DNA of 64,000 nt from Naegleria gruberi (GCA_000004985.1 GG738908.1); one strand, 5' to 3'; counted from the stretch's first letter, positions 1,054 through 64,000 are shown. Numbers and translations are program-made. The notes: a model not told the origin generated them from the sequence alone.

Positions 1054-1103
1054 NNNNNNNNNNNNNNNNNNNNNNNNNNNNNNNNNNNNNNNNNNNNNNN
1101 NNN
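1054..1103. other. Assembly gap (50 N), plus a single N at 1036
   Basis: Run of n. Confidence 1.
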
Positions 1104-36787: not shown

Positions 36788-39700
36788 ATGGAGAAAGTAC
36801 CACTCCAGCAAATATCAAAAAGAAAAGGTACGACCTTCAGATTCTTCCATGAAGCTAGTTGCAACGAGATAAATCAGCACAGAGCAGTGCTGTCATCATC
36901 ATTGACAACAAGGAGTGGTTTGATCACACTGATGATTGTTGTTATAATAATGATGCTGGTTGTTGTGGAACATTCGGAAGCATCTCCCACAACAATAGCA
37001 GTTGCTGGTAGTGTGGGTAATACAGACGAGGCTTGGAATTTTCCACTGTATGGTACGGGTATATTTGTGGTGCCAAACAGTGATCCTTCATTGTTGCCAA
37101 CTTTTTATGTTTCTGATGGAAATTTGTGTGTTGTGAGACAGATCATTGGAAATCAAAGTCGAGTGGTGGCAGGAACAGGTGAATGTTTACCAAACGGTGC
37201 TGATTCAGTTCCTGGAACAGAATCTACCTTGTATGGACCTACGAATATGTATTATGATGCTACTACAGATTTTCTCTACATTTTGGATTCGTCATCTATT
37301 AGATTATTGGACATGAAGAGTGGAATAATTTCTAAAATGCTCATTACATTCAGTGGAACTAATTTAAACTCATTTTCTCAACCAAGTGGTATTACCATGT
37401 TCAATAAGGATATTTATGTGGCAGATACAGGAAAAGCTGTTGTGTGGAAAGTGCAAATTACCTATAGAAATGTTGGTACAGCAACAATTAGTGTTGGAAG
37501 TTTGAATAATATGAATAACAATAATTATTGTGATAATGTTTATGCCACCACGTGTAAACTTATCAAACCTACAAGTATCTCTTTCTTCCCAGATGGAACC
37601 AAGGCAATTGCAGATGGAAGAAGAGTTATTATTGTTACTCCAACCAATTCGGCATATGAAGCTCCTGTATCCATGTCTATGAACAATCCAGTACATGTTG
37701 TCGCCTATGATGCATCCAACTTGTTGATTTCAGATCTAGGACTAGCACGTTTTATACAATTTAACAAGGATCAAGCACAACCAAATACTAATGTGGTATT
37801 GTCATCTTCTTGGGCAAGAAATACTTATTTTGGACTTGTGAAACAAGCAGACAATTCTAAAAATGTATACTTCCTCACAGGTCAAGATTACACAACAAAG
37901 AGAAGTCAAATTGTTTCGTTTAACTTTATTGATAGCGATTTACCAAGTACTTCTACAACACCATTATATGGCATGTATGACTCTGGATTCCAGTTTGATA
38001 ATCCACATAATGCATTGAGTGTTTACATGCCTAGTCCACAACAAATGAGACTAACTTCAAGTAATCAATTGTATTTCCCAATTTTTAATTCTGCTGTTGT
38101 AAAGGTAGATTTGAATTCTGGATTAGTGACAAGAATTGCTGGAAGTATTACACAATTTGGATATAATCAAGACAGTATCCCTGCAACCATAGCTCTGATG
38201 ACTAGACCAAATACTGTTTTACAATTGGATTCCGGAGATTTAATCATTTCAGATACAGGTAATAACAGAATTAGAAAAATTGATTCAAATGGAATTATAA
38301 CTACAATAGTTGGTACAGGAACGCAAGGAAATAGTGGAGATTATGGGCCTGCAAGTCAATGCCAATTAAATGGTCCACAAGGACTGGCAACACCTCCAAC
38401 AAGCATGAAAGGTCAATTTTTGTTTGATTTTGCTGACACTAATAATAACAGAATTAGAAGAATACAAAATGACTTGACAGTTATACCCCTATTAAGCAAT
38501 AATCCTAATAATGATGGAATTAACGGACCAAATGGAATAATGTACACGCCAAATGGTGATCTTTATATCGCCAGTCAAGGAAATCACAAAATAATGAAAT
38601 ACAGTAATTCACAATTGAGTACTGTTGCTGGAAATGGTTATGCAGGTTATTCAGGAGATGGAGGACCAGCCAGAAATGCCAAGTTGAACTATCCTGCAGA
38701 TGTTACAGTTTCCTCCACAGGTGAAGTTTATATTGCAGGTATGTTTTGAAGAAATTTAATGTAATTTTTAAACGATTCATCTACTAGATTGGGGAAATAG
38801 AGCTGTAAGAAAAGTTTTCAGAAATGGAACAATTATTACTCTTATTGTTAGTGGCGGACTTTCGGACTTGAATGGTGTTACATTGACACCGAATGGAGAT
38901 TTGTTGTATTCAACACAATTATGGGTCAAGCTGTATATGGAGGGAGATTCAGGAAGTTGTATTGATAAGAATACATGCAATAATCATGGCAGTTGTGTGA
39001 ATGGAAAGTGTGTTTGTGATAGTGGATGGAGAGGAAATTTGAATTGTGGAACATTTTCATGTGACATTACACCACCACCTCATTCTTCACAATGTATTGG
39101 TCCAAATCAATTTTCTTGTCAAGATGGGTGGACAGGATTAAATTGCCAGGAACCAGTTTGCTTTGGAACTCCAGCAAACACCACAACAGTATGCAGTTCA
39201 CACGGTAAATGTATTTCCAATAATACATGTAATTGTGTGAGTGGATGGAGAGGCAATTCAGATTGCAGTGCATTTTCATGTGATGTAAAATCTGAACATG
39301 GAGAGTATTGTATTGGACCTAATACCTACAAATGTCAAGATGGCTGGATTGGTGATTTATGTGACATTCCACTTTGTAATGGAATTCCAGCAAATAATCC
39401 AGCAGTTTGCAATTCACACGGACAGTGCATTTCCAATAATACATGTAATTGCTTTAGTGGATGGAGAGGAAATAGTATTTGCACTCAATTTACATGTGAT
39501 GGTGTCAATAATTGTCAACCTCATGGTCAATGCATTTCTAATAATACTTGTAAATGTAGTACTGGTTATGGTGGAAATGGATGTAACGATAGAATGTGCT
39601 TTGGTAAATGGGGTCAAGCAGGTTGCAGCAATAATGGATATTGTTCAAATACTGACAAGTGCAGTTGTTTCCCTCTCTATTTTGGACAACAATGTCAGTG

Positions 39701-41048
39701 GCTTGATTGTAATCCCTCTTCAAATGATCAATCCATTAATTCTACTAAGGGCTGTTCTTCAAATGGAAACTGTACTGTTATTGACAATGATCAAACCAGA
39801 CAAAACTCAACAATTTGTAAATGTAACGAAGGATTTGATGGGCTGTATTGTCAAGAAAAGAAGTCATCAGGAAATGGTGGAACTGTTGCAGCTGTTGTCA
39901 TTGTTGTGTTGCTTTTCATTTGTTGTTTGATTGCTTTCATAGCAGTTGGTGGTTTTGTTTATTACAAGAAACGAGCAAGTTCCAAATCAGAGGAATTTGA
40001 GAATTTGATTCCAAAATCTGTTAACGACGATTGGACTTTGAGAACTGTTATTCCTCCAGAGGAGGCAACTGTGAAAAGTACAGCCTCTTCTGTTAAATCT
40101 GAAAATAGCTTTATACGGTCAATTAGAAAGCAACTGGGTAGTTCAAGTACAACATCTTCTGTATCAACCATTAACACAAGAGATCATTTCCATATTAGAG
40201 ATAAAGAATATGTGAAATCAAAGAAATTGGGATCAGGTGCAAGTGGAACAGTTTTCATGTTTGATGAGTTGACCAATAAGGAACAAGTTGCTGTGAAAAT
40301 TATTGAAGTTTTAAATCCAAATGGAAGCGAATTTAAGGAAGTTGTGAACATGTTTGAATTGAGTGAAGAAGCAAATCCTCACATTGTTCCAATTCTAGGA
40401 TGTACAATGGTTGAAAATGGAGGATATATTTGTATCTTGATGCCATTATACAAATGTGATTTGAGAAATTGGATGTATTCCAATAAGGAGACGGTTCCAA
40501 TCGAAATAATTGTCGAAATTGTGAAACAAATTGCATCAGCACTTCAATATCTCCATTCTAAGAACATGGTACACAGAGATTTGAAACAAAGTAATATATT
40601 TGTTTCAAAATCACCTGATCTTTCAAAGAATAATGTGAATGTTTCATCTTTCCAACTTTGTGTTGGAGATTGGGGATCTTCAAGATATCAAACAAGATCT
40701 TCTTTAACTGCTTATGAAGGAACAATTCAATACAGTTCACCAGAGTCAATTGTAAAAGCAGAATTTTCACCAAAAAGTGATGTTTGGAGTCTTGGATGTA
40801 TTTTATATCAATTATTATCAGCAGATTACAATACTTGTTTGATGAGAGTGAAACAAACCTCAATGAATGACCAATCAGATGTTCAAATCATAGGAAATGT
40901 TGAAAAATTCTTTTCAAAACGTTCAGATCATTCACACAAACTTTACAAAATCATTTGTGATTTAATGTTGGAAATGTTGAGATTTAATCCAGAGGAGAGA
41001 ATTTCCACAGATGAAATTGTCCAAAAACTCTCAATGAACAATGTTTAA
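36788..41048 (+). CDS. Receptor-like protein kinase: signal peptide, NHL-repeat beta-propeller, tenascin-type EGF repeats, TM helix and cytoplasmic kinase domain; 2 exons
   Basis: CDS join(36788..38738,38788..41048). The intron is GTATGT...CTACTAG (49 nt) and splits ...GEVYIAG|D. NHL blades show as (Y/F)..GDLYI(A/S)D..N.RI.K. There are about 9 EGF repeats (C.SGWRGN..C..FSCD). The TM helix is VAAVVIVVLLFICCLIAFIAVGGFVYY. The kinase carries LGSGASGTVF, VAVKII, HRDLKQSNIF, the variant G-D-W-G in place of DFG, SPE and DVWSLGCILYQLL. Confidence 0.8.
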
Positions 41049-41110
41049 TAATATTATTTAATAATAAATTAAATATTTACGAATATTTATAAAATTTTGA
41101 TAAGAAAAAA

Positions 41111-42187
41111 ATGCAACAAGTTGTTTTATTATTGGATGATGATTTGTCTCAATCGTTTGGTGATATCGGAAGTGATTGGTTGTTTATAAAATTATCAACA
41201 CAAATGCGAACTAAATTATTGCAAAATTCACACGAATTTCACACCACAAACTTTAAACTCGTGCACACGATTGGTGAGTGCAAACGAAAAGGCTCTTCCG
41301 AATATTTGTTGAATGATCCTATGGGTTTAAAAATTAGCAAATTGATGAATTGGTTGTTAATATGTGATTCGGGAAATAAGAGAGTACAAATATATGACAG
41401 ATTTAATTTTGAATACTTGTATTCGATTCGGATGAAAACTCAACCTCAATATGTGGAAATTGAAGAGTGGCATGATCAGTGTGGATATTATGCAGATGAG
41501 AATTCATTATTACTATACATTACTTGTTCGAATCAGGTTTTAATCAAGATGAAAGTTACTGTAGTGATGGAAGAAAATGAAAAGAAACTTCATGTTGAGG
41601 AATTGTGGAATACTCGAGAATTATTGGAAAGAAATGAACTAAGTGCAGAGTATGGGCTATTCTTTGAGAGATTCAACCAAGAATATTTGAATTCTGTCTT
41701 GTATGTTTGTGATTCAACCAAGAGAAGAATTGTCATGTTGAATGCCCTTGATGGAAGCATTCTCAATCAATTATTTCTGAAAAGAAAGGAGAAATTCAGT
41801 TCAGCAGTCTCTATTCTAATCGATTCTAAAAAGAAATGGATTTTAGTGAGCGAAATGGCTGGTCAACGTGTGAAAATTTTAGATTACAAAACTAGACAAT
41901 TATTACACTCACTTGGAAAGTATGGAAAAGAGTTGGATGAATTTTCATATCCTAGAGGAATATTCTTGGAAGAGAAGATGAATAGATTATATGTGTGTGA
42001 TGCTTCAAATAATAGAATTTCGCTGATTGACTTGGACAAGTTGGAATTTGTGGAATATTTTGGAGGAAAGAATTCGAATATGGAACAAGTTCAATTGAAA
42101 ACACCAACTTCAGTGGTGATTGATGATTCGACTGGAACTCTTCTAGTTTCTGATAACAAATTAGATCAAGTTTTCATCTTTAGATGA
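41111..42187 (+). CDS. Cytosolic NHL-repeat protein
   Basis: A 358-aa ORF with no signal peptide. Its NHL-like blades are LNDPMGLKISKLMNWLLICDSGNKRVQIYD, FSYPRGIFLEEKMNRLYVCDASNNRISLIDL and LKTPTSVVIDDSTGTLLVSDNKLDQVFIF. Confidence 0.65.
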   Translation: MQQVVLLLDDDLSQSFGDIGSDWLFIKLSTQMRTKLLQNSHEFHTTNFKLVHTIGECKRKGSSEYLLNDPMGLKISKLMNWLLICDSGNKRVQIYDRFNFEYLYSIRMKTQPQYVEIEEWHDQCGYYADENSLLLYITCSNQVLIKMKVTVVMEENEKKLHVEELWNTRELLERNELSAEYGLFFERFNQEYLNSVLYVCDSTKRRIVMLNALDGSILNQLFLKRKEKFSSAVSILIDSKKKWILVSEMAGQRVKILDYKTRQLLHSLGKYGKELDEFSYPRGIFLEEKMNRLYVCDASNNRISLIDLDKLEFVEYFGGKNSNMEQVQLKTPTSVVIDDSTGTLLVSDNKLDQVFIFR

Positions 42188-43257: not shown

Positions 43258-43554
43258 TGTCTTTTTCTATTATAAATCACTCGATGGCGATAAGTGAAGA
43301 GATGATGAGGGCAAGATGGTGTTCCTCTTTTTTGAAGTTCTTCTTTGTTGTTTAATGTTATTATTAAACACAAAATTACACACATTGATGGATCCTTAAT
43401 TGGAGTTTGTTGAACCAATTTAATACCAATGGTCTACTGTAAATTTTGAAAAAATAAAAAAATAAAAGTAAATTACAAATTAGATTATTAAGAATGAAAT
43501 ATTTGATAATACATATTGTTGATAATAAGTATTGAAAATTATAAAACTTTTCGG

Positions 43555-43628
43555 TGGAGTATAGAGTGATTTGAACACCTGACCTCCCGCTTGCAGAGCG
43601 GGCGCTCTCCCATCTGAGCTAACACCCC
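43555..43628 (-). tRNA. tRNA-Ala (anticodon UGC)-like gene
   Basis: The reverse complement reads GGGGTGTTAGCTCAGATGGGAGAGCGCCCGCTCTGCAAGCGGGAGGTCAGGTGTTCAAATCACTCTATACTCCA. It has a canonical Ala D-arm (GCTCAG..GGGAGAGC). The anticodon stem is CCCGC/GCGGG with loop TCTGCAA (TGC). The acceptor stem GGGGTGT/ATACTCC carries the G3:U70 alanine identity pair and an A73 discriminator. The T-arm has one extra nucleotide or bulge (AGGTG-TTCAAAT-CACTCT), so it may be slightly degenerate. Confidence 0.55.
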
Positions 43629-46908: not shown

Positions 46909-48389
46909 ATGTCCTACTCCCTCTTTGTGCCTCTTTCTCTGAGTCTTTCTGACGATGCACCAGGTTTTAATACCAGCAATACTGCAGCAATAGATTCATC
47001 ATCATCTCATCAGCAACACCTTCGGAGGAGGAAAATCTTGGACCATTGTGCTGGAAATGTGATGGCACTGGCTTGCAAAAAAGAAAAGGACCAAAACCTC
47101 CCAAATCATCAAATAATAATCATATAATTAATAATAATAGTAATAATAATAATTTAATAGATGATGAAATTCCACCATGTAAAGTTTGTAAAGGCATGAA
47201 AAGGTTGAAAATTAAAAAACAATTATTGGAAGCCAAAAGTCGGATGGGAGAAATTACTCAAGTTTCCATTCCAAGTGATTGGAACAAAATAGTAGGACTA
47301 GGAGACGAGCAAGAAGGTTCTAGCTATGATAATGTAGAACATTTAAATCAAGTACTTCTCACACAAGAAGAACTCCAACCAAAAGAAGGAGAACAATTGT
47401 GTGGTCTTGTTGGAGGATGGAGAATATTCCAAAAGAAAGGAGGACATCGTTGGACTACTGATGATATTGTTACAGCTTGGGCAGCATGTACTGCAGTGAA
47501 AACTATTTTACCTCTCATTAGGAAATTTAACAGAGAAAATCAACCATCATCATCATCTTCATCGTCTACTGATATTTCAATCGAGGAAGAAGATGCTGAT
47601 ATCAAATGGGAAGATTTGATTTCAAATTATTTAGATATCGGATGTGGAAATGGTTCTGTTCTAATGATGGTAGCTCGGAATATGCCACTCACAACCAAAT
47701 GCATTGGAGTTGAGGCAAGAAGTGAAGCTGTCTCTCTCGCCCGTAGGAGCATTGCTTTCAATTGTGGATTGGATTCAACTCGTATTCAGGTGAGAAATAG
47801 AGATTTTCGAGAAATTAATTCCAATACCATGATGAATGTATTACCTGAAGGAAGTGGTTTTTTCGATCTAGTAACAGGCACCCCTCCTTACTTTAGAGTA
47901 AATTTCAAACATAATAGCAACAAGGTGGAAGAAGCATTAATAAGACAAGGTGGTATGCCTTCTAATAAGGACTCTTGTCCTGCAAGATGTGAATTCAGAG
48001 GAGGAATAGAGGCCTACTGCCAAGCTGCGTCTGTTGCCATGAAACCAATGAGTGGTGTGTTTGTGGTGTGTGAAAATTGGTTGAATCATGATCGTGTGGT
48101 AATGGCCGCAAAAGAAGCAAGGCTGCACATTTACTCTATGAATAAGATAAGCGGAAAAGAGGGTAAAGATGTACTATTTTGTGTCTATTCAATGATCAGC
48201 CAACAATTGGTTGACTCTATATCGGAAAGCACATATGTACAAATAAGCAACTATTCAAAATTAATAGAAACCACTATCAACTCGCAAGCAGTTCGAGATA
48301 TGGATGGAGCGTGGACAAATGATTATGGACAATTATTGAGGGATGTTCTCTACCCAGTTGCAAGCCTTCATCCCAGTGGTAAATATTAA
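46909..48389 (+). CDS. SAM-dependent methyltransferase of the small-domain / (D/N/T)PPY class with an N-terminal CxxC...CxxC zinc-ribbon-like motif; the 5' region contains a frame discontinuity
   Basis: The main ORF 47046-48389 reads GGWRIFQKKGGHRWTTDDIVTAWAA ... LDIGCGNGSVLMMVARNMP (motif I) ... IGVEARSEAVSLARRSIAFNCGLDSTRIQV ... FDLVTGTPPYF (motif IV, TPPY). It has no in-frame ATG. The ATG at 46909 (aaaaaaATG, MSYSLFVPLSL...) is in the -1 frame. CWKCDGTG...PPCKVCKG lies between the two. Confidence 0.6.
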
Positions 48390-48948
48390 CAACAATATTT
48401 TGACCTACCAAATACTTCATTTTCAATTTCCATTTATTTAAAAGAGATGATTGACTTTGAAATGTGTCAACATTTGAGAAGAAAAATCATGTTTGCCCGC
48501 TGTAACAATTATTGTAGATCAATTGTAGTTTCTCGTAGAAATTCAGGTATGTGCATGAAAATTTACTTTAGCTGTTTAGCCAGCTACAATGGGTCTTTGC
48601 TTGCCTCTTATTTGTACAGAAGCCTAATGATGGCGATGTGATGGAGGTTGATGGGCGAATGTAATATTCTTCACCTACCATTAAGGAAGAAGCCTTTTAA
48701 AAGCAAGAAAAAAAGAACACCGTTATGAGCGAATCACATGATATCGGCAACAGTGGTGCTCTCAAACATCATCATCATCAATTAGATAATAGTAGTAAGG
48801 AAAATGGTGGCTCAATTGTTAGCTCTTCATCAAATACCCAATCAAATATCAGCAAGGGCGCATTTTCCTTCATGAAGAGCATAATATATGATAAGCTTTT
48901 TAATTTTCTAGCAATGGCCAAATCTTCCGAGAGCAGAAATGGAAGAAA

Positions 48949-51900
48949 ATGGCAATCAATCTATTATTTGTTTCATATCTATTTCTTTTTCGTCATCTTA
49001 ATAATACCTACTCTATCAACATATTATCCAAACCTCTATACATCAGATACAACACAATATGCATCAAGAATTCAGAGTTTCCCTCTCCCTTTGGATACTA
49101 TGGTGGTTTTGTATTTAGAGTTTTGAACTACTTCATAACGTTTGGCGTTGATACTCTTAGTGCTCCCTATTATTTTACTATTGCACTGTCATCAGTCATC
49201 ATATTACTTTACTCATGCTTCCCACTCTTGGTTGTTTACACTCACAAAAAACTCTATGGAAGCGCCAAGAAACGACTCAATTCTTTTGTGGGCATATTTT
49301 CCTTCCTTGTTCTTGTTTTTGCTCCTTTCAGTATCTTTGTAATGACTAGTTTTATTGATTGTGATTTGAAAACAACAATAAGTGTGGATGGTTTTGATGT
49401 ATATCCACTGATCAGGTTTCCAACCTATGCATGCTACGATTCAAGCAATGTCATTCTCATTGTAATTAACTATATAGGAATGGCCATCTTGTTGGGAAGT
49501 TCTTTGATGGCTGTACATATTCTTCCAATGGGTAATCCAGAATCTTCCATACCCTTTCTTTCTGAAAACCAATTCACATTGATGGGAATTATTGGAAACA
49601 CCATTTTTAGAATTGGTATTGTTTTTGCAATTCCATATTATCTACTTTATTTGAGAGCTATTGTACACGCAGTATTTTCAATTGTTTCAATAGTCTATCT
49701 TTTTTTTGGAGTGCCATTCTTTAAAAGATATGAAAACTCTGTTTATTCTGCAGTATTATTTGGTTCATTTGGATCAAGTATTGGAGTTTTGATTAGCTGC
49801 CTTGTAAATACTTCAAACGATAATAATTTGGGAGCTGGAATGCTTGGTCTGGTATTTGGATTAACAATAATTTTCATGTCAATTGGATATATTGTTATGG
49901 AAATTTACACAAGATTAATGGTACATAAAATTAGAAAGATTTTCCACCAATTCTTGAACCAAACAACAGACTCCATGTCAGAGGATGATGGCTTGACAAG
50001 CATAATGGAAAGATACTGTGCTGAGATATTTTCGACCATTTCAAACACATCACTAACAGCATTCAGAATGTATATGCAATTCAATATCAAGAAAAAGGTT
50101 GGCTATGCTGTTAACGAAAGAACGGATAGCAATATCATTTTGGTATTCATCAAGACATATGCTCCCAAGAAGAATTTCGATTCACCAATCCTATTATTGT
50201 ACTCTTCCTTATTTATTTCTCATCAATGGACTGATCCTAATAGGTATTCCTTTGCACTTTATCTATTGAAGAGAACTGAGAAGAATCATAACAATAATTA
50301 TTTTGTAAAACTTTCAGTCTTGTGCAGATGTAGAGATATGGAAATGCATATTGACAAGTCACATAATGGAAGAGGAAATTTGGAAGTGAAAGCACTTTTG
50401 GATAAACTGGAACAAAAGCAAGAGGAATTGAAGAATGTACATAGAGCATTTTGGAAAGAAATGACAGCAGAACGTCCTAAAGAGGAGAAAATCTACACTA
50501 TCAATGCTATTTCAGCAGAAATTATGACATACTGTGATGAATCCTATGAGCACTTACTAGCAAACTTTCCTCATGATAAAACAGTGATAAGATACTATGC
50601 TAATTATGTTGAAAATATCAAGTTGGATAAGGAACTATCTACTGGACTCTTTGAAGAAGCACAAGTTTTAGAAGAGGAAGAATCTAAAAACTCGAGAACT
50701 TCAACCTATCTCTTCAACACCTCAAGAAAGGGATCCAAATTCAAAACCAACCGAGTAGCTCCAGCAAATTCTCACAGTTTTTCAGACAATTTGAGAACCA
50801 GTGAAAATAGTCTTACATCTTTTACCCAAAGAAGACCATCATCTCCTACAAATCACACCATTACTCCGGAATTGAGTGTTATCGACAAACAAATACTCGA
50901 AGATTCAGATGATTTTCGTGGGGTAGAAGAAGAATTAACTCCACAACAACTTCACTACCGTCGGGCTGCTGTCTTTAGAAATGCTTTAAACACTCCATAT
51001 GAATCCTCTATTAGAAAATCTATTTTCATAGGACTTGCTGTACTCTCAGTTCTTTTATTGGCTGCTATTTTTTCTGTCTCTGTTTATTATGATATTGAAG
51101 TTACGAAAACATATTTGGTAAAATCCAGCTGTCTTACTATGAGTTCACCTGGTGCAATGCTTCGAGATATTAGATTGATGCAAATTCTAACTGAAACATA
51201 TGGAAATTTGAAATGGAAAATACCTGAAAATGGAACCGTAGAGTACCAAGAATTACAGACCTATATGAGCTATTATACCAAAGCTTTTACTTTCCAACAA
51301 CAAAATTTATTGAACCTTCAAGCTGTTTCACAATCAGGATCTTTTTCTGAAAGAATGTATCAGGACTATACAGTTGAGGACAAGACCATAATGGTACCAA
51401 TTTCTAACGATACATCTTCAAACACACTTCTAGAATATACAAACACATTCAAAAAAACAACATCAGTCAGAGAAATTACTCAAGAATTATTAACCCATGC
51501 CAATTCTGTTCTAGAATTACAAATAGACTATAACAAATCTCTAAATAGTTATCCATTCATGTACATTTTTCAAAATAGAAAGTATGCAGCTGATGCTTTT
51601 TACACCTTTTGCAAAGCGTAAGTTTTTAAATTTTGAATGCTATCTTAATATCATCTTACAGATTTCAAGAAAGTGAAAAAATTCACATTCAAGAATCTAG
51701 AGATATCCTAGGCCAAATTCTGCTTGGATGCTCTGTTGGATTTTCTACTATAATTCTAATTAGTATCTCAATTTCAAGATTAGAAATGGAAAAATCTTCA
51801 ATTATATTTAAACTATATAAAACCATTTCGAAGGATATTATTGGAGTTATTTTTCAAGAGTTGGATAAGAAACATAAGAATGATGAGCTTAAAGGACTTA

Positions 51901-54298
51901 AAAAGAAACGACTTCCAAAACCAAAACATACAACAGTAATTGTTTCATTTATTATTATTGCAATATTTTTGGTTTGTTCTGGAATTTTCTATCAGGAAAT
52001 GTTGACAAATGTTGAAAGAGCAAATATTGCCATGCAAAATGTTGATATTGCATCTCTAATGATCAGAACAACCAATAGAATTACTCTGAGATTGAATGAA
52101 ATGTTTTCCTATCTCAGTATTCCACTAGGAAAATCGGTAAATAATCCTGCTATTGTTACCGCTTCTGTTATTGCACAATACAGAGCAGATGTGAGAACAT
52201 TTACAACAACTGTACAATCTCTATTCTCTCAATTAGTTTACGGAACTAACAGTACAAACTCAATTATTGGCATTTACCCTAAAATTGATGAAATGTTAAA
52301 GGGAGATCCTACTTGTGATAATGTTACCTTATTGTATTGTGGAAGTTTGGAACAAATGGTATCAATTTATACTATTTTGGGTGGAGGAATGTCTGAAAAC
52401 TTTTTCAATCCAATCTATGCCAAAAACTCTAAAGAAGTGTTGAATTATCTTGTAAAAATGTATAATATGAACGATATGGTTTTCGAAAAGCTTGTTGATT
52501 TCATGGATTTGTTGGTTACCTATACTGGTCAAGCTAGTTTATCATCAACTATTGGACTTTTTATTGCTGGATTGATAGTCTTGTTAATTTCCAATTACAC
52601 CATGTATTTATCTATTATTACCTATGACAGACAAGTTTCCAGTTTGAGAGGAATGTTGAACTATTTACCTTACGAGTGGATTGAATCGAATGAAACTGTA
52701 AAGAATTTTGTTTTCTATAATTCCTTGCCACTCGTTAATCAAAGGAATAATTTAAAGAAGGGAAGTGATACACTCAACAATTTACTTCATTCCATGGTTG
52801 ATGGTGCAGTGCTTTCTAACGAGAAGGGAGAAATTCTTCTATTCAACACTGCATGTCAAAGACTATTCTCTAAAATTCCTTCAGAAGTAATGGGACTCAA
52901 ATTCTACTCATTATTTGATAAGGCCAACGAATCTAAATTAATAGACATTGCCAGAAATTGTAGAGATTACCTTGTTGAAGGAGAGAACAATAAGAATGGT
53001 GAAGTTATGGAGTTGAATTGTATCAGAAAGAATCTATCCACATTCCCTGCACAAGTTAATATTTTCGTCACAAGAGATGGTGATAATAAGGTTGTCATTG
53101 TATGCTTTATCAAGGATATTACTACAGAAAAGAAGGCAAATACATTACTAAGTGAAGAAAAGAAGAATTCTGAAAAGTTGTTGAGAAATATTCTACCAGA
53201 ATCTGTTGCATTGAAATTGAAGAGTGGTAACAGCTTTGTTGCTGAAAGATTTAATGATGTTAGTGTATTCTTTTCAGATATGTAAGTATTCCACAATTAT
53301 TATTATTCATAATATTCATATATATTCCATAATTATTATTCAATATATTAATATTACTCAAATTAAATAGGGTTGGATTTACAGCATTATCATCGGATAT
53401 GAATCCATCTGATTTGATATTACTATTGAATAATGTAGTGAATGGATTTGATGATTTGACTGACAAGTATGAATTGGAAAAGATTAAAACTATTGGAGAT
53501 GCATACTTTTGTGTTGGAGGTTTACCAATCAATCCACAATCTGATCACCCTGAAAGAACGCTCCGATTTGCTATGGATTGTTTTAGTGTAATTAGAGGAT
53601 TCAACCAAGCTACAAATGGAGAGAAGGTTATCAATATTAGGTTAGTATTATTATTATTTGTAATATTTAGGTAGATGTTAATATTGTTGTTGTGCTCATC
53701 CATCTATATAGAATTGGTATTAATACTGGATCAGTTGTAGCTGGTGTTATAGGAAAGAAGGTAAGTTTTTATAATTGTTATTAATAATATTCATGATGAT
53801 AATTGTTGAATAGAAATTTGCATATGTGAGTGTTGTTATTATTAAAACATTATTAATTGTTTAATATTTTCATACTGATGCTGAATGATGAATAATTATT
53901 ATTAGGATCTGTGGGGAGTAAGTAAATTATAATTAAAATTCAAATACTAACCAAACATCAAGGATACAATCAACACTGCCTCCAGAATGGAATCTAACAG
54001 CAAGCCAGGGCGTATTCAAATTTCACGATCAACCTATGAAAGGTATGTGTTAAAATCTTCTATTTGTTGATATATTATTCTACTTTATAGAGTGTACGAT
54101 TTAGGATTTGAATTTGAAGAAAGAAGTATTGATGTGAAAGGAAAGGGTGTATGTACTTGTTACTTGATGAATGAAAGGTATCACGATAATCCACTGGATA
54201 TTCAAGTTGTTGGTAATAATACTGTTGTTCCACCTGTGGCTTCCGAGAATCCAATCATGACAGCCTTGTCTGATGACCAGACTTCATTGACACAATAA
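48949..54298 (+). CDS. Multi-pass membrane class III adenylyl cyclase with a PAS-like region and a single cyclase-homology domain; at least 8 exons including two 12-nt microexons
   Basis: CDS join(48949..51617,51662..53281,53371..53640,53712..53760,53814..53825,53906..53917,53963..54042,54091..54298). All introns are GT(A/G)AGT...AG and 44-89 nt long. The N-terminus has about 8 TM helices, a long loop and one more TM. The PAS-like region is DGAVLSNEKGEILLFNTACQRLFSKIPSEVMGLKFYSLF. The cyclase-homology domain (CHD) reads FFSDM|VGFTALSS...LEKIKTIGDAYFCVGGLP...INIR|IGINTGSVVAGVIGKK|KFAY|DLWG|DTINTASRMESNSKPGRIQISRSTYER|VYDLGFEFEERSIDVKGKG. The substrate-specifying residues are Lys (K-TIGD) and Asp (YDLWG), which is the adenylate type. 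Metal Asps and the N/R transition-state residues are present. An alternative upstream His-rich ORF (48725) in another frame may be a 5' extension. Confidence 0.8.
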
Positions 54299-55929: not shown

Positions 55930-57492
55930 ATGACTGCACTCTTCATCTCTTTCCTTCTTCTCCTTTGCACATCACTGAAACTATCACATGCTACTACCTA
56001 TCCAGTTTATAACATTTCCAATTTTTTGGGAGGTGGTAGTGTTTTAGGAGATGGTGGATTGGCTGTGAATGCCAAAGTAGAATATACTGAAGGAGTTGCA
56101 GTCAATTCTAAAGGAGAAGTATTAGTAGTACAGAATTTTTATGGTCGTGTTAGAAAGGTTGATAAAAATGGATATGTTACAACGATAGCAGGATTTGGAA
56201 CTTCTGGTGATAGTAGTGGAAATGGAGGTTTGGCAACTAATGCAATGCTTGGCTACCCTGCAGGAATTACAGTTAACGATAAAGATGAAATTTATCTTGT
56301 GGAATATGGAACTCACATGGTTCGAAAGATTTTGGTGAATGGAACAATTCAAGAATTTGCTGGAATTTTAAATGGTGGAGGATTTGGAGGAGATAATGGA
56401 TTGGCAACGAATGCTATTTTTAACCATCCGTATGGAGTTTCAGTTAATCCATTAACAGGTGATGTTTACATTTCAGATTTTTCGAATAATCGAATTCGTA
56501 AGGTAGATTCGAGTGGAATCATTTCAACATATGTTGGAACTGGAAATACAGAGTATGGAGCTGATGACATTTTGGCTGTTAATGCTAATATTAACAGTCC
56601 TTATTATATTGCAACAGGTCCAAATGGTGATTTATACATCCCATTAGTAGGATCATCTAGAATTTGTAAAGTTTCGTATAGTACTGGAAAAATTACAACC
56701 ATAGCAGGTACTGGAGCTTATGGGTATAGTGGAGATGGTGGATTGGCAATTAATGCTGTGATTAGATATCCAAAAAGTATAGCCATAGGTAAACATGGTG
56801 AAATTTTTTTTACTGATTCGGATAATCAAGTCATTCGTCGAATTACTCCAGATGGAATCATTACAACCATAGCGGGCACTGGTAATTTTGGTTATTCTGG
56901 TGATGGCGGTTTAGCAACAAGTGCTGATATCAGTAAGCCAACTGGAATAGCTGTAGATTCGAATGGAACCATTTACTTTTGCGATAATAACAATAATAGA
57001 GTTAGAAAGTTAGTTCCTTACTGTTTGGATGGAAAGCTAGTGAATGGAACTTGTGAATTTTCTTGTTTTGGAATCAAGAACAATCTTGCAACTGTTTGTA
57101 ATGGTCATGGAAATTGTTTGGCCACAAATAGTTGTTTATGTGATTCTGGATGGAAAGGAAATGTACAATGTTCTCAATTCAGTTGTGATGGTTTGAATAA
57201 TTGCAATGGGCATGGCAGTTGTGTTTTGAATAATACTTGTCAATGTCAAGATGGTTGGAAAGGAAATTTAGAGTGTTCTCAATATAGTTGTGAAAGAGTT
57301 AATAATTGTAATGGAAGAGGAGCTTGTGTAGGTGTCAATACTTGTTTGTGTGTTAGTGGATATTTTGGAAAAGAATGTCAATACAAAACCTGTTTTGCAA
57401 ATAGTAACAATGAAATGCTAAATTATGGAAATAGACCATTTACCATGTCTGAAAGATTTTGTCAAAAGATAAATAAACAGTTATTGGTTTAA
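55930..57492 (+). CDS. Secreted NHL-repeat plus tenascin-type EGF-repeat protein; ectodomain paralog of the NHL-EGF receptor kinase, with no kinase domain
   Basis: A 520-aa single ORF with a signal peptide (MTALFISFLLLLCTSLKLSHA). It has about 6 NHL blades (GDVYISDFSNNRIRKVD..., GTIYFCDNNNNRVRKL) and then 4 EGF repeats (C.C.SGWKGN.QCSQFSCD). It ends without a recognisable TM. Confidence 0.75.
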   Translation: MTALFISFLLLLCTSLKLSHATTYPVYNISNFLGGGSVLGDGGLAVNAKVEYTEGVAVNSKGEVLVVQNFYGRVRKVDKNGYVTTIAGFGTSGDSSGNGGLATNAMLGYPAGITVNDKDEIYLVEYGTHMVRKILVNGTIQEFAGILNGGGFGGDNGLATNAIFNHPYGVSVNPLTGDVYISDFSNNRIRKVDSSGIISTYVGTGNTEYGADDILAVNANINSPYYIATGPNGDLYIPLVGSSRICKVSYSTGKITTIAGTGAYGYSGDGGLAINAVIRYPKSIAIGKHGEIFFTDSDNQVIRRITPDGIITTIAGTGNFGYSGDGGLATSADISKPTGIAVDSNGTIYFCDNNNNRVRKLVPYCLDGKLVNGTCEFSCFGIKNNLATVCNGHGNCLATNSCLCDSGWKGNVQCSQFSCDGLNNCNGHGSCVLNNTCQCQDGWKGNLECSQYSCERVNNCNGRGACVGVNTCLCVSGYFGKECQYKTCFANSNNEMLNYGNRPFTMSERFCQKINKQLLV

Positions 57493-58981: not shown

Positions 58982-61900
58982 NNNNNNNNNNNNNNNNNNN
59001 NNNNNNNNNNNNNNNNNNNNNNNNNNNNNNNNNNNNNNNNNNNNNNNNNNNNNNNNNNNNNNNNNNNNNNNNNNNNNNNNNNNNNNNNNNNNNNNNNNNN
59101 NNNNNNNNNNNNNNNNNNNNNNNNNNNNNNNNNNNNNNNNNNNNNNNNNNNNNNNNNNNNNNNNNNNNNNNNNNNNNNNNNNNNNNNNNNNNNNNNNNNN
59201 NNNNNNNNNNNNNNNNNNNNNNNNNNNNNNNNNNNNNNNNNNNNNNNNNNNNNNNNNNNNNNNNNNNNNNNNNNNNNNNNNNNNNNNNNNNNNNNNNNNN
59301 NNNNNNNNNNNNNNNNNNNNNNNNNNNNNNNNNNNNNNNNNNNNNNNNNNNNNNNNNNNNNNNNNNNNNNNNNNNNNNNNNNNNNNNNNNNNNNNNNNNN
59401 NNNNNNNNNNNNNNNNNNNNNNNNNNNNNNNNNNNNNNNNNNNNNNNNNNNNNNNNNNNNNNNNNNNNNNNNNNNNNNNNNNNNNNNNNNNNNNNNNNNN
59501 NNNNNNNNNNNNNNNNNNNNNNNNNNNNNNNNNNNNNNNNNNNNNNNNNNNNNNNNNNNNNNNNNNNNNNNNNNNNNNNNNNNNNNNNNNNNNNNNNNNN
59601 NNNNNNNNNNNNNNNNNNNNNNNNNNNNNNNNNNNNNNNNNNNNNNNNNNNNNNNNNNNNNNNNNNNNNNNNNNNNNNNNNNNNNNNNNNNNNNNNNNNN
59701 NNNNNNNNNNNNNNNNNNNNNNNNNNNNNNNNNNNNNNNNNNNNNNNNNNNNNNNNNNNNNNNNNNNNNNNNNNNNNNNNNNNNNNNNNNNNNNNNNNNN
59801 NNNNNNNNNNNNNNNNNNNNNNNNNNNNNNNNNNNNNNNNNNNNNNNNNNNNNNNNNNNNNNNNNNNNNNNNNNNNNNNNNNNNNNNNNNNNNNNNNNNN
59901 NNNNNNNNNNNNNNNNNNNNNNNNNNNNNNNNNNNNNNNNNNNNNNNNNNNNNNNNNNNNNNNNNNNNNNNNNNNNNNNNNNNNNNNNNNNNNNNNNNNN
60001 NNNNNNNNNNNNNNNNNNNNNNNNNNNNNNNNNNNNNNNNNNNNNNNNNNNNNNNNNNNNNNNNNNNNNNNNNNNNNNNNNNNNNNNNNNNNNNNNNNNN
60101 NNNNNNNNNNNNNNNNNNNNNNNNNNNNNNNNNNNNNNNNNNNNNNNNNNNNNNNNNNNNNNNNNNNNNNNNNNNNNNNNNNNNNNNNNNNNNNNNNNNN
60201 NNNNNNNNNNNNNNNNNNNNNNNNNNNNNNNNNNNNNNNNNNNNNNNNNNNNNNNNNNNNNNNNNNNNNNNNNNNNNNNNNNNNNNNNNNNNNNNNNNNN
60301 NNNNNNNNNNNNNNNNNNNNNNNNNNNNNNNNNNNNNNNNNNNNNNNNNNNNNNNNNNNNNNNNNNNNNNNNNNNNNNNNNNNNNNNNNNNNNNNNNNNN
60401 NNNNNNNNNNNNNNNNNNNNNNNNNNNNNNNNNNNNNNNNNNNNNNNNNNNNNNNNNNNNNNNNNNNNNNNNNNNNNNNNNNNNNNNNNNNNNNNNNNNN
60501 NNNNNNNNNNNNNNNNNNNNNNNNNNNNNNNNNNNNNNNNNNNNNNNNNNNNNNNNNNNNNNNNNNNNNNNNNNNNNNNNNNNNNNNNNNNNNNNNNNNN
60601 NNNNNNNNNNNNNNNNNNNNNNNNNNNNNNNNNNNNNNNNNNNNNNNNNNNNNNNNNNNNNNNNNNNNNNNNNNNNNNNNNNNNNNNNNNNNNNNNNNNN
60701 NNNNNNNNNNNNNNNNNNNNNNNNNNNNNNNNNNNNNNNNNNNNNNNNNNNNNNNNNNNNNNNNNNNNNNNNNNNNNNNNNNNNNNNNNNNNNNNNNNNN
60801 NNNNNNNNNNNNNNNNNNNNNNNNNNNNNNNNNNNNNNNNNNNNNNNNNNNNNNNNNNNNNNNNNNNNNNNNNNNNNNNNNNNNNNNNNNNNNNNNNNNN
60901 NNNNNNNNNNNNNNNNNNNNNNNNNNNNNNNNNNNNNNNNNNNNNNNNNNNNNNNNNNNNNNNNNNNNNNNNNNNNNNNNNNNNNNNNNNNNNNNNNNNN
61001 NNNNNNNNNNNNNNNNNNNNNNNNNNNNNNNNNNNNNNNNNNNNNNNNNNNNNNNNNNNNNNNNNNNNNNNNNNNNNNNNNNNNNNNNNNNNNNNNNNNN
61101 NNNNNNNNNNNNNNNNNNNNNNNNNNNNNNNNNNNNNNNNNNNNNNNNNNNNNNNNNNNNNNNNNNNNNNNNNNNNNNNNNNNNNNNNNNNNNNNNNNNN
61201 NNNNNNNNNNNNNNNNNNNNNNNNNNNNNNNNNNNNNNNNNNNNNNNNNNNNNNNNNNNNNNNNNNNNNNNNNNNNNNNNNNNNNNNNNNNNNNNNNNNN
61301 NNNNNNNNNNNNNNNNNNNNNNNNNNNNNNNNNNNNNNNNNNNNNNNNNNNNNNNNNNNNNNNNNNNNNNNNNNNNNNNNNNNNNNNNNNNNNNNNNNNN
61401 NNNNNNNNNNNNNNNNNNNNNNNNNNNNNNNNNNNNNNNNNNNNNNNNNNNNNNNNNNNNNNNNNNNNNNNNNNNNNNNNNNNNNNNNNNNNNNNNNNNN
61501 NNNNNNNNNNNNNNNNNNNNNNNNNNNNNNNNNNNNNNNNNNNNNNNNNNNNNNNNNNNNNNNNNNNNNNNNNNNNNNNNNNNNNNNNNNNNNNNNNNNN
61601 NNNNNNNNNNNNNNNNNNNNNNNNNNNNNNNNNNNNNNNNNNNNNNNNNNNNNNNNNNNNNNNNNNNNNNNNNNNNNNNNNNNNNNNNNNNNNNNNNNNN
61701 NNNNNNNNNNNNNNNNNNNNNNNNNNNNNNNNNNNNNNNNNNNNNNNNNNNNNNNNNNNNNNNNNNNNNNNNNNNNNNNNNNNNNNNNNNNNNNNNNNNN
61801 NNNNNNNNNNNNNNNNNNNNNNNNNNNNNNNNNNNNNNNNNNNNNNNNNNNNNNNNNNNNNNNNNNNNNNNNNNNNNNNNNNNNNNNNNNNNNNNNNNNN

Positions 61901-62910
61901 NNNNNNNNNNNNNNNNNNNNNNNNNNNNNNNNNNNNNNNNNNNNNNNNNNNNNNNNNNNNNNNNNNNNNNNNNNNNNNNNNNNNNNNNNNNNNNNNNNNN
62001 NNNNNNNNNNNNNNNNNNNNNNNNNNNNNNNNNNNNNNNNNNNNNNNNNNNNNNNNNNNNNNNNNNNNNNNNNNNNNNNNNNNNNNNNNNNNNNNNNNNN
62101 NNNNNNNNNNNNNNNNNNNNNNNNNNNNNNNNNNNNNNNNNNNNNNNNNNNNNNNNNNNNNNNNNNNNNNNNNNNNNNNNNNNNNNNNNNNNNNNNNNNN
62201 NNNNNNNNNNNNNNNNNNNNNNNNNNNNNNNNNNNNNNNNNNNNNNNNNNNNNNNNNNNNNNNNNNNNNNNNNNNNNNNNNNNNNNNNNNNNNNNNNNNN
62301 NNNNNNNNNNNNNNNNNNNNNNNNNNNNNNNNNNNNNNNNNNNNNNNNNNNNNNNNNNNNNNNNNNNNNNNNNNNNNNNNNNNNNNNNNNNNNNNNNNNN
62401 NNNNNNNNNNNNNNNNNNNNNNNNNNNNNNNNNNNNNNNNNNNNNNNNNNNNNNNNNNNNNNNNNNNNNNNNNNNNNNNNNNNNNNNNNNNNNNNNNNNN
62501 NNNNNNNNNNNNNNNNNNNNNNNNNNNNNNNNNNNNNNNNNNNNNNNNNNNNNNNNNNNNNNNNNNNNNNNNNNNNNNNNNNNNNNNNNNNNNNNNNNNN
62601 NNNNNNNNNNNNNNNNNNNNNNNNNNNNNNNNNNNNNNNNNNNNNNNNNNNNNNNNNNNNNNNNNNNNNNNNNNNNNNNNNNNNNNNNNNNNNNNNNNNN
62701 NNNNNNNNNNNNNNNNNNNNNNNNNNNNNNNNNNNNNNNNNNNNNNNNNNNNNNNNNNNNNNNNNNNNNNNNNNNNNNNNNNNNNNNNNNNNNNNNNNNN
62801 NNNNNNNNNNNNNNNNNNNNNNNNNNNNNNNNNNNNNNNNNNNNNNNNNNNNNNNNNNNNNNNNNNNNNNNNNNNNNNNNNNNNNNNNNNNNNNNNNNNN
62901 NNNNNNNNNN
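58982..62910. other. Assembly gap (3929 N) in the subtelomeric region
   Basis: Run of n. Confidence 1.
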
Positions 62911-63581: not shown

Positions 63582-64000
63582 GGTTTGGGTTTGGGTTTGG
63601 GTTTGGGTTTGGGTTTGGGTTTGGGTTTGGGTTTGGGTTTGGGTTTGGGTTTGGGTTTGGGTTTGGGTTTGGGTTTGGGTTTGGGTTTGGGTTTGGGTTT
63701 GGGTTTGGGTTTGGGTTTGGGTTTGGGTTTGGGTTTGGGTTTGGGTTTGGGTTTGGGTTGGGTTTGGGTTTGGGTTTGGGTTTGGGTTTGGGTTTGGGTT
63801 TGGGTTTGGGTTTGGGTTTGGGTTTGGGTTTTGGGTTTGGGTTTGGGTTTGGGTTTGGGTTTGGGTTTGGGTTTGGGTTTGGGTTTGGGTTTGGGTTTGG
63901 GTTTGGGTTTGGGTTTGGGTTTGGGTTTGGGTTTGGGTTTGGGTTTGGGTTTGGGTTTGGGTTTGGGTTTGGGTTTGGGTTTGGGTTTGGGTTTGGGTTT
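63582..64000 (+). repeat. Telomere-like hexamer array (TTTGGG)n with the G-rich strand 5'->3' toward the window and scaffold end
   Basis: About 70 near-perfect GGGTTT units run to the last base. Variant units are GGGTT at about 63758 and GGGTTTT at about 63830. Degenerate related motifs (GGGCTAGGGTTTGAA, GGTTCAAAGG) lie immediately upstream at 63520-63580. Confidence 0.85.

What the first reader, a model, noticed from the sequence alone, without database searches (positions are those of the whole stretch)
48949..54298. Membrane adenylyl cyclase with a multi-TM N-terminus, a PAS-like module and a single CHD with Lys/Asp (adenylate) specificity
The gene has only one cyclase-homology domain. That domain carries both metal-binding Asps (FSDMVGFT, TIGDAY), the Lys-before-TIG and the Asp in YDLWG (ATP specificity), and the Asn/Arg pair of NTASRMES. 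It would therefore have to homodimerise. This is combined with about 9 TM helices and a PAS-like sensor segment (DGAVLSNEKGEILLFNTACQRLFSKIPSEVMGLKFYSLF). That architecture differs from 12-TM two-CHD cyclases and resembles sensor-type cyclases, so it may be a ligand- or stress-gated cAMP source.
Basis: partly seen in the sequence, partly recalled or inferred. Interest (0 to 1): 0.5.

Follow-up and report, generated by a model that had tools for sequence, protein, structure and literature searches.

The report
Naegleria sensor-type membrane adenylyl cyclase
This is a real Naegleria gruberi gene for a large membrane-bound, PAS-containing, single-domain adenylyl cyclase; it belongs to a big, uncharacterised cyclase family of free-living amoebae whose membrane part is related to a Dictyostelium regulator of cAMP signalling.

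Summary
Window 48949-54298 (+) is an 8-exon gene of Naegleria gruberi, 100% identical to an NCBI 'predicted protein'. It has one cyclase-homology domain (Pfam E=6e-55) with all seven catalytic and adenine-specifying residues. It also has a true PAS domain (E=1e-11), a class IIIa-type transducer helix and many TM helices.

Corrections:
- The organism is a heterolobosean, not a dictyostelid.
- I count 12 TM helices (8+2+2), not about 9.
- The true start is probably ATG 48725.
- The NCBI model wrongly fuses the upstream methyltransferase gene.

New points:
- The N-terminal TM bundle plus TPR region is a TmcB/TmcC-type module (PF25474).
- The TM9/10 and TM11/12 loops are confidently predicted extracytoplasmic four-helix bundles of the bacterial sensor kind.
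- The whole architecture recurs in dozens of paralogues in Naegleria, Willaertia and Acrasis, and in two amoebozoans.

It is most likely a homodimeric receptor adenylyl cyclase. The ligand and the role of the membrane module are unknown. I rate it a new member of a known kind, of moderate interest.

The parts
48725..49075 (+). Probable true first coding stretch (frame 2): cytoplasmic N-terminal tail plus TM1 (KWQSIYYLFHIYFFFVILIIPTLSTYY)
   Evidence: The N-termini of paralogues P0002, P0020, P0021/P0170, P0022 and P0201 align here in frame 2, including the conserved (I/L)PTL(S/G) motif. A hybrid protein starting at 48725 aligns from residue 10 to residue 1677 with N. fowleri P0201.
49063..49087 (+). 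Frame break (frame 2 to frame 1). Most simply a 1-nt indel in the assembly or the strain, in a TTT/CCC-rich stretch.
   Evidence: Paralogue alignments switch frame between ASRIQ (frame 2) and PFGYYGG (frame 1). No canonical GT-AG intron restores the frame while keeping the conserved IPTLS motif.
48949..51617 (+). Encodes TM2-TM8, the TPR region, a linker, TM9 and most of extracytoplasmic bundle 1.
   Evidence: ORF list; splice donor GTAAGT at 51618
49081..49923 (+). Conserved polytopic TM bundle (TM2-TM8; TM1 lies upstream). Carries the conserved FIDC...RFPxxxC loop and the PFFKRYENS motif (49714-49740).
   Evidence: Hydropathy. AF2 model with pLDDT 89.7. Conserved columns in A5/A6. No solved structural homologue.
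49966..50724 (+). Cytoplasmic all-helical TPR-like domain; the Pfam TPR_TmcB (PF25474) match lies at 50383-50688
51022..51773 (+). TM9 (51022-51078), extracytoplasmic helical bundle 1 (51079-51716, interrupted by intron 51618-51661), TM10 (51717-51773)
   Evidence: AF2 model with pLDDT 86.8 and pTM 0.79, helices continuous with the TM segments. Conserved Cys pair and NxS sites.
51774..51932 (+). Basic cytoplasmic loop (15 K+R in 53 aa) with the conserved K-D-x-x-G-K-I-(Y/F)-H motif
   Evidence: Positive-inside count; consensus of A3
51933..52589 (+). TM11 (51933-51989), extracytoplasmic helical bundle 2 (51990-52532), TM12 (52533-52589)
52644..52664 (+). Juxtamembrane motif LRGMLNY (nearly invariant R, N, Y) between TM12 and PAS
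   Evidence: Nearly invariant columns R550, N554, Y555 of A3
52776..53123 (+). PAS domain (residues 1262-1377)
   Evidence: Pfam PAS_9 E=1.3e-11 and PAS E=3.2e-9. The closest solved PAS is FixL, E=5e-4.
53133..53237 (+). Helical linker / cyclase-transducer element (LLSEEKKNSEKLLRNILPESVALKLKSG)
   Evidence: Aligns with the helix preceding C2 of AC9 and AC8. Weak HNOBA C-terminal match. The family consensus is conserved.
53238..54172 (+). Single cyclase-homology domain, split over exons 2-8. Residues: D1429 (53277-53279), K1469 (53486-53488), D1473 (53498-53500), R1520 (split codon 53639/53712), D1541 (53906-53908), N1548 (53972-53974), R1552 (53984-53986).
   Evidence: Pfam E=6.2e-55; alignments to AC9 C1/C2; coordinates
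53814..53825 (+). 12-nt microexon encoding KFAY
   Evidence: Flanked by an AG acceptor and a GTGAGT donor. The product matches the conserved KKFAYDLWGDT of paralogues.
53906..53917 (+). 12-nt microexon encoding DLWG (contains the adenine-specifying Asp)
   Evidence: Flanked by an AG acceptor and a GTAAGT donor. The product matches that of paralogues.
54091..54298 (+). Last exon: end of the CHD, a short C-terminal tail and the TAA stop

Best explanation
The locus encodes a receptor-type, homodimeric class III (IIIa-like) adenylyl cyclase of Naegleria gruberi. It is about 1,640 aa as assembled and about 1,714 aa if the upstream exon is included.

Shown:
- One complete CHD with both metal Asps, the transition-state Asn/Arg and Arg, and the Lys/Asp pair that specifies ATP.
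- A PAS domain, followed by a helical transducer element directly upstream of the CHD.
- Twelve predicted TM helices.
- An N-terminal TM bundle plus TPR domain of the TmcB/TmcC type.
- Two large loops that are confidently predicted as helical bundles continuous with TM9/10 and TM11/12.

Inferred:
- Two chains pair through the transducer helices and the CHDs to build two symmetric active sites.
- The two bundles face outward. The basic TM10-TM11 loop, the conserved Cys pairs and the NxS/T sites support this topology.
- The bundles act as a ligand- or stimulus-sensing ectodomain, as four-helix-bundle sensors do in bacterial chemoreceptors and histidine kinases.
- Movement of TM12 passes through the conserved LRxMLNY juxtamembrane segment and the PAS domain to the transducer helix. 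This sets the relative orientation of the two CHDs and so the rate of cAMP synthesis.
- The PAS domain may add a second, cytoplasmic input.
- The 8-TM/TPR module may add regulation or partner binding. Its role is unknown.

The gene is one paralogue of a large cyclase family expanded in Heterolobosea.
For: - Organism and gene: 100% identity to an N. gruberi predicted protein.
- Domains: Pfam Guanylate_cyc E=6e-55 as a single stretch, PAS_9 E=1e-11, TPR_TmcB E=2e-12.
- CHD type: the best solved relatives are AC9, AC8 and AC5, and the homodimeric mycobacterial class IIIa cyclases 5o5k, 4p2f and 7yzi (E down to 1e-50). The alignment covers the helix before the CHD.
- Catalytic residues: D-K-D-D-N-R-R is present here and in 33 of the 39 family CHDs compared, with the query row excluded.
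- Topology: 12 TM segments; 15 K+R in the TM10-TM11 loop and 5 in the TM2-TM3 loop.
- Family: a profile of the non-catalytic 1,150 aa finds 210 cluster representatives, 74 of them at E<=1e-30. Nearly all full-length ones also carry PAS and CHD.
- Distribution: members occur in N. gruberi, N. fowleri, N. lovaniensis, Willaertia magna, Acrasis kona, Cavostelium and Phalansterium.
Against: - No biochemical data exist for any family member.
- The orientation of the loops rests on hydropathy, the positive-inside rule and conserved Cys and sequon patterns, not on a dedicated topology predictor.
- The PAS domain shows no recognisable cofactor signature. It lacks the LOV Cys motif, and the FixL proximal His position is Leu.
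- The assembled sequence has a frame break at the 5' end, so the intact protein is a reconstruction.
Confidence: 0.7

Rival explanations
1. The membrane part is not a receptor. The 8-TM bundle, and perhaps TM9-12, is a transporter, channel, lipid-handling or scaffolding module, or simply a dimerising anchor. The PAS domain is the only true sensor. This would resemble the channel-cyclase fusions of ciliates and apicomplexans, or the debated role of the 6-TM anchors of mammalian and mycobacterial cyclases.
For: - The TM bundle is strongly conserved, with polar signature motifs (FIDC...RFPxxxC, PFxKRxENS), from Heterolobosea to Amoebozoa and a chytrid.
- The module occurs without any cyclase in some proteins (P0026, P0076, P0158), so it has a function of its own.
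- The four-helix-bundle hits are generic.
Against: - The bundles are continuous with TM helices that lead directly into PAS-CTE-CHD. This is the layout of transmembrane signalling receptors.
Confidence: 0.2
2. The locus is a pseudogene or an N-terminally truncated, non-functional copy, because the conserved first exon is out of frame with the rest.
For: Frame break near 49063-49087. No acceptable intron repairs it. The family has many paralogues, so loss of one copy would be tolerated.
Against: - Downstream of the break, 1,600 codons over 8 exons stay open. All splice sites and all seven catalytic residues are intact, and family-wide conserved motifs are retained.
- A single-base assembly error is plausible here. 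The region lies in a gap-rich scaffold end, with N runs at 25360-26100 and 58982-62910.
Confidence: 0.1
3. The enzyme is a guanylyl cyclase or a dual-specificity cyclase rather than an adenylyl cyclase.
For: Pfam PF00211 does not separate the two activities. Receptor guanylyl cyclases are among the good sequence matches (E=1e-47). Rare Lys/Asp enzymes show side activities (general knowledge).
Against: The purine-specifying pair is Lys (KIKTIGD) and Asp (YDLWG), as in AC C2 domains and the mycobacterial adenylyl cyclases. It is not the Glu/Cys or Glu/Gly pair of guanylyl cyclases.
Confidence: 0.05
4. The NCBI gene model is right: a 1,950-aa fusion of an N-terminal SAM-methyltransferase-like domain with the cyclase.
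For: P0001 as deposited joins ORF 47046-48389, a small exon at about 48447-48545 and the cyclase at EFPSPFGYY.
Against: - No homologue has this N-terminus. All start with a short tail plus TM1, which matches the ORF at 48725.
- The methyltransferase ORF runs on to its own stop at 48389.
- The model needs an intron of roughly 530 nt (my estimate from the sequence). The seven verified introns of this gene are 44-89 nt.
Confidence: 0.04

Closest known systems
Mycobacterial class IIIa membrane adenylyl cyclases (Rv1625c/Cya; PDB 7yzi, 4p2f, 5o5k)
   Same: - Single CHD per chain, acting as an obligatory homodimer.
- Complete D/D, K/D, N/R residue set.
- A helical transducer segment between the membrane part and the CHD.
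- Sequence match E about 1e-49 to 1e-50.
   Different: The mycobacterial enzymes have a compact 6-TM anchor with no large loops, no PAS and no TPR. Here there are 12 TM helices, two ectodomain bundles of about 190 aa each, a PAS domain and a TmcB-type module.
Mammalian 12-TM adenylyl cyclases (AC9, AC8, AC5)
   Same: The best overall CHD matches (E about 1e-63, summed over C1 and C2). The catalytic residues align with those that C1 and C2 contribute separately. The nominal TM count is also 12.
   Different: The mammalian enzymes have two CHDs in one chain (a pseudo-heterodimer, one active site), a 6+6 TM arrangement and G-protein regulation. Here there is one CHD, 8+2+2 TM helices and PAS input.
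Dictyostelium TmcB/TmcC (tiny macrocysts proteins; Pfam PF25474 TPR_TmcB)
   Same: The TPR region matches the Pfam family above its cut-off. UniRef labels cyclase-less family members as 'TmcB/TmcC TPR repeats domain-containing protein'. tmcB is reported to regulate the cAMP pathway during macrocyst formation (PMC12750705, citing Muramoto et al. 2005).
   Different: As far as the tools could show, TmcB-type proteins lack PAS and CHD. I could not obtain the Dictyostelium sequences to test whether their TM bundle and TM9-12 region are homologous along the full length.
Dictyostelium ACG and trypanosomatid receptor adenylyl cyclases
   Same: Eukaryotic microbial cyclases with one CHD and an extracellular sensor, working as homodimers. 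ACG is an intramolecular osmosensor (PMC9928731, citing Saran and Schaap 2004).
   Different: These have one or two TM helices and CHASE-type or periplasmic-binding-protein-type ectodomains (my own knowledge). They have no PAS and no TmcB module. No sequence relationship outside the CHD was seen here.
Bacterial four-helix-bundle sensor domains (4HB_MCP of chemoreceptors, NarX/NarQ, TorS, NIT of NasR)
   Same: The predicted fold of the two loops. Helices are continuous with flanking TM helices and the output lies on the cytoplasmic side.
   Different: Sequence identity is only 5-8%. Designed bundles score equally well. Here two bundles lie in tandem in one chain, whereas the bacterial sensors have one per chain.
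Bacterial soluble PAS/GAF-CHD cyclases (e.g. Anaerolineales proteins P0007-P0014)
   Same: A PAS domain directly upstream of a class III CHD. They align over about 21% of the query.
   Different: They are soluble or have different sensors. Identity is only 23-27%.

Membership tests
Class III nucleotidyl cyclase (CHD, Pfam PF00211) | Significant match to the CHD profile | tested here: met
   186 bits against a cut-off of 21.9, E=6.2e-55, profile positions 2-182 of 183
Class III nucleotidyl cyclase (CHD, Pfam PF00211) | Two metal-binding Asp, transition-state Asn and Arg, plus the second Arg, all in one chain (competent as a homodimer) | tested here: met
   D1429, D1473, N1548, R1552 and R1520 align with the AC9 C1/C2 residues
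Adenylyl (not guanylyl) cyclase | Lys and Asp at the purine-specifying positions | tested here: met
   K1469 in KIKTIGD and D1541 in YDLWG. Actual substrate preference was not measured.
Adenylyl (not guanylyl) cyclase | Measured preference for ATP | not testable with these tools
   Needs an enzyme assay
Class IIIa subclass with cyclase-transducer element | Conserved helical segment immediately N-terminal of the CHD, and closest similarity to IIIa enzymes | tested here: met
   LLRNILPESVALKLK aligns with LLRNIIPYHVAEQLK of AC9. The top hits are tmACs, Rv1625c/Cya and receptor guanylyl cyclases.
PAS domain | Match to PAS profiles above the curated cut-off | tested here: met
   PAS_9 45.1 bits (cut-off 27); PAS 37.2 bits (cut-off 22.6)
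LOV (flavin) PAS | GXNCRFLQ motif with the photoactive Cys | tested here: not met
   By my own reading of the sequence, the equivalent stretch is GLKFYSLF, with no Cys
FixL-type heme PAS | Proximal His on the F-alpha helix | tested here: not met
   FixL is the closest solved PAS (E=5e-4), but its SRHDSY His aligns with Leu. The alignment is weak, so this is not decisive.
TmcB/TmcC family | TPR_TmcB (PF25474) match | tested here: met
   47.7 bits against a cut-off of 27. Also met in relatives P0002, P0026, P0076, P0152, P0158, P0169 and P0201.
TmcB/TmcC family | Full-length homology to Dictyostelium TmcB/TmcC, including the TM bundle | not tested
   The Dictyostelium sequences could not be retrieved. 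Word-indexed searches with profiles returned nothing. The chytrid 'TmcB/TmcC' protein P0158 does match both the TM bundle and the TPR region.
Four-helix-bundle sensor domains (4HB_MCP / NIT / TorS-like) | Fold similarity clearly above generic helical bundles, or a sequence-profile match | tested here: inconclusive
12-TM two-CHD adenylyl cyclases (ACA / mammalian type) | Two CHDs, each following a 6-TM block | tested here: not met
   One CHD only; TM layout 8+2+2

The most novel reading that the evidence does not exclude
The TmcB/TmcC-type 8-TM plus TPR module may be an ancient, dedicated input module for cAMP synthesis. In Heterolobosea and some Amoebozoa it is covalently fused to PAS-CHD. In Dictyostelium (TmcB/TmcC) and chytrids it would be a separate protein. 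The fusion would then act as a 'Rosetta stone': it predicts that Dictyostelium TmcB acts directly on an adenylyl cyclase. It would also define a new TM fold as a receptor or regulator class for cyclases.
Probability: 0.2. Interest if true: 0.55.

Novelty: new member of a known kind. Interest (0 to 1): 0.35.

Why it matters
Naegleria species carry many membrane cyclases. PMC9928731 counts at least 81 in the genus pangenome, and none has a known signal. This locus shows the anatomy of what appears to be a major type. That type is shared with the pathogen N. fowleri, with the aggregative Acrasis, and with two amoebozoans.

The anatomy gives concrete, testable parts: two ectodomain bundles, a juxtamembrane motif, a PAS domain and a TmcB-type module. 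It also links an otherwise obscure Dictyostelium regulator of cAMP signalling to a cyclase.

For the single gene, however, the result is expected biology: a sensor-type class III adenylyl cyclase in an organism known for cyclase expansion.

Tried and rejected
- Word-indexed searches. The search for homologous proteins with profile queries of the membrane module returned only the query's own record or nothing. The exhaustive representative search was needed instead. It first failed because the profile was too long and then because the job was lost.
- Hybrid N-terminus.
- Missing library. afdb50 was not available, so no AlphaFold-database neighbours such as TmcB itself could be retrieved.
- P0003 and P0006. 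These Logan-assembly proteins have an analogous multi-TM, PAS and CHD layout, but no significant N-terminal similarity (BLASTP E=0.47; hhalign probability 1%; no hmmsearch hit). I do not count them as family members.
- Intron repair of the 5' frame break. The only GT-AG candidates (48970-49046, 48992-49068, 48992-49077) have poor donors and would delete the conserved IPTLS/TM1 segment. Rejected.
- PAS cofactors. LOV-type and FixL-type signatures are not supported.
- Internal duplication of the TM-bundle-TM unit. hhalign gives E=8e-4 but only 25% probability. Left open.
- Literature. A search for TmcB or 'tiny macrocysts' gave only a secondary citation.


Full report
**Identity of the sequence.** The window is AT-rich (about 33% GC) eukaryotic DNA. 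The product of the locus is 100% identical to an NCBI/UniRef 'predicted protein [Naegleria gruberi]' (P0001).

**Gene model.** From the ORF list and the raw sequence I built an 8-exon model:
- 48949-51617
- 51662-53281
- 53371-53640
- 53712-53760
- 53814-53825
- 53906-53917
- 53963-54042
- 54091-54298

The seven introns are 44-89 nt long and have 15-23% GC. They start with GTAAGT, GTTAGT, GTGAGT or GTATGT and end in AG. The product is 1639 aa with no internal stop. Two exons are only 12 nt long. They encode KFAY and DLWG, and the joined sequence KKFAYDLWGDTINTASRMES is what paralogues and the deposited model have. The microexons are therefore real.

**The observation.** Pfam finds one Guanylate_cyc domain (residues 1416-1598, E=6.2e-55, one stretch), PAS_9 (1270-1377, E=1.3e-11) and PAS (E=3.2e-9), both above their curated cut-offs. 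No second CHD is present.

Against solved structures the CHD is closest to mammalian AC9, AC8 and AC5 and to the homodimeric mycobacterial class IIIa enzymes (5o5k, 4p2f, 7yzi; E about 1e-50). The alignments place D1429 and D1473 on the C1 metal Asps. They place K1469, D1541, N1548 and R1552 on the C2 Lys, Asp, Asn and Arg. The helix LLRNILPESVALKLK falls on the transducer helix before the CHD (coordinates).

**Topology.** A Kyte-Doolittle scan gives seven to eight TM segments in residues 69-325, then single segments at 692-710, 909-927, 981-999 and 1181-1199. With the upstream exon (see below) the count is 12, arranged 8+2+2. Three features fit one topology:
- The TM2-TM3 loop has 5 K+R.
- The TM10-TM11 loop has 15 K+R in 53 aa.
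- The two large loops (711-908 and 1000-1180) carry NxS/T sites and conserved Cys pairs.

In that topology the N-terminus, the TPR region, the basic loop and PAS-CHD are cytoplasmic, and the two large loops are extracytoplasmic. This rests on simple rules, not on a dedicated predictor.

**5' end.** The N-termini of paralogues (P0002, P0020, P0021/P0170, P0022, P0201) align first with the frame-2 ORF that starts at ATG 48725 (MSESHD...KWQSIYYLFHIYFFFVILIIPTLSTYY, a TM helix with the conserved PTL(S/G) motif). They then switch to frame 1 at PFGYYGG (about 49087). A reconstructed 1714-aa protein aligns over residues 10-1677 with N. fowleri CAG4713405.1 (40.6% identity) and over residues 54-1681 with N. 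gruberi D2VSW1 (40.3%). No acceptable GT-AG intron repairs the frame without deleting the conserved segment.

The simplest reading is a 1-nt indel between 49063 and 49087. This could be an assembly error, since the region lies near a scaffold end with large gaps, or a strain lesion. The deposited model P0001 avoids the problem by fusing the upstream methyltransferase-like ORF (47046-48389; weak Methyltransf hits) through a small exon and an intron of roughly 530 nt (my estimate from the sequence). No homologue supports that fusion.

**Family.** A profile of the non-catalytic 1,150 residues (this protein plus paralogue P0002; alignment A2) was searched exhaustively against 1.84 billion representatives. 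It found 210 proteins at E<=1e-3 and 74 at E<=1e-30. Of the 150 listed, 43 contain a CHD and 50 a PAS by local phmmer. Of the 42 representatives of 1,100 aa or more, 35 carry a CHD and 36 a PAS. Many short representatives are fragments of 1,600-1,800-aa cyclases.

Named members come from:
- N. gruberi: at least seven loci.
- N. fowleri: at least eleven loci.
- N. lovaniensis, Willaertia magna and Acrasis kona (the last annotated 'adenylate cyclase').
- The amoebozoans Cavostelium apophysatum and Phalansterium solitarium. Pfam confirms TPR_TmcB, PAS and CHD in both.

Cyclase-less versions exist: P0026, P0076, and the chytrid Geranomyces protein named 'TmcB/TmcC TPR repeats domain-containing protein'. 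The chytrid protein matches both the TM bundle and the TPR part. D-K-D-D-N-R-R is present in 33 of the 39 family CHDs compared, with the query row excluded.

**Structure predictions.** Residues 670-1262 (TM9 to just before the PAS domain) fold with mean pLDDT 86.8 and pTM 0.79. The model is almost entirely helical. Each loop forms a bundle whose outer helices are direct extensions of the flanking TM helices, and a long helix runs from TM12 into the cytoplasm.

**PAS domain.** The closest solved sequence is the heme PAS of FixL (E=5e-4), but the proximal His aligns with Leu. The LOV Cys motif is absent (my own reading of the sequence). The cofactor or ligand, if any, is unknown.

**Mechanism.**
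- Shown: a complete single CHD with Lys/Asp, preceded by a class IIIa-type transducer helix and a PAS domain, at the end of a 12-TM protein.
- Established for class III cyclases: a single CHD with all residues forms a head-to-tail homodimer with two active sites. Rotation or register changes of the preceding coiled coil control activity.
- Inferred: the two outward-facing bundles sense a signal. TM12, the nearly invariant LRxMLNY segment and the PAS domain relay it to the transducer helix. The PAS domain and the TmcB-type module may add further inputs.

The main rival is that the conserved TM bundle has an autonomous function (transport, scaffolding or partner binding) rather than sensing. Its occurrence without a cyclase supports this view, but there is no similarity to known transporters.

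[quoted passage not shown] 2005 (PMC12750705). A TmcB-type module fused to an adenylyl cyclase in two eukaryotic supergroups is therefore a suggestive functional link. I could not obtain the Dictyostelium sequences to test full-length homology.

**Novelty and interest.** The gene and its Pfam domains are already in public databases, though with a wrong 5' model and no name. Cyclase expansion in Naegleria is known ('at least 81 cyclases', PMC9928731). I found no paper that describes this architecture or its family, but the library is incomplete. I rate it a new member of a known kind (sensor-type class III adenylyl cyclase) with an uncharacterised membrane module, interest 0.35.

Noticed in passing
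window 63582-64000: About 70 perfect tandem copies of GGTTTG, i.e. (TTTGGG)n, with the G-rich strand running 5'->3' to the window end, just after a 3.9-kb assembly gap. It looks like a chromosome-end telomere repeat. A 2013 survey said no telomere information was available for N. gruberi (PMC3622300).
   Followed up: partly
window 47046-48545 (and P0001): The deposited N. gruberi protein (1950 aa) fuses an upstream SAM-methyltransferase-like ORF (47046-48389, which has its own stop) to the cyclase through a small exon at about 48447-48545. No homologue has this N-terminus, so the model is probably chimeric.
   Followed up: partly
window 49063-49087: A one-base frame discontinuity between the conserved first coding stretch (from ATG 48725) and the rest of the cyclase ORF. 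It could be an assembly error or a real lesion.
   Followed up: yes
window 53814-53825 and 53906-53917: Two consecutive 12-nt microexons (KFAY, DLWG) inside the catalytic domain. Five of the gene's seven introns lie in its last 760 bp.
   Followed up: partly
window 1054-1103, 25360-26100, 58982-62910: Runs of N (50, 741 and 3929 bases): assembly gaps. ORFs listed across them are artefacts.
   Followed up: yes
window 36788-42187 and 55930-57492: A cluster of genes for NHL-repeat and teneurin-type EGF proteins (36788-38749, 41111-42187, 55930-57492) and an EGF-repeat protein kinase (38868-41048) flanks the cyclase. It may be a local family of surface or receptor proteins.
   Followed up: no
window 43553-43628 (-): tRNA-Ala (anticodon TGC).
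   Followed up: no
window 51022-51773 versus 51933-52589: The two TM-bundle-TM units align in register by profile comparison (E=8e-4, probability 25%). This may be an internal duplication that mimics the dimeric ectodomain of bacterial chemoreceptors within one chain.
   Followed up: partly
P0003 and P0006 (Logan assemblies, organism unknown): Proteins of about 1,570 aa with the same order of parts (multi-TM, helical region, further TM pairs, PAS, Lys/Asp CHD) but no detectable sequence similarity in the N-terminal 1,200 aa. They are either very distant relatives or a convergent architecture.
   Followed up: partly
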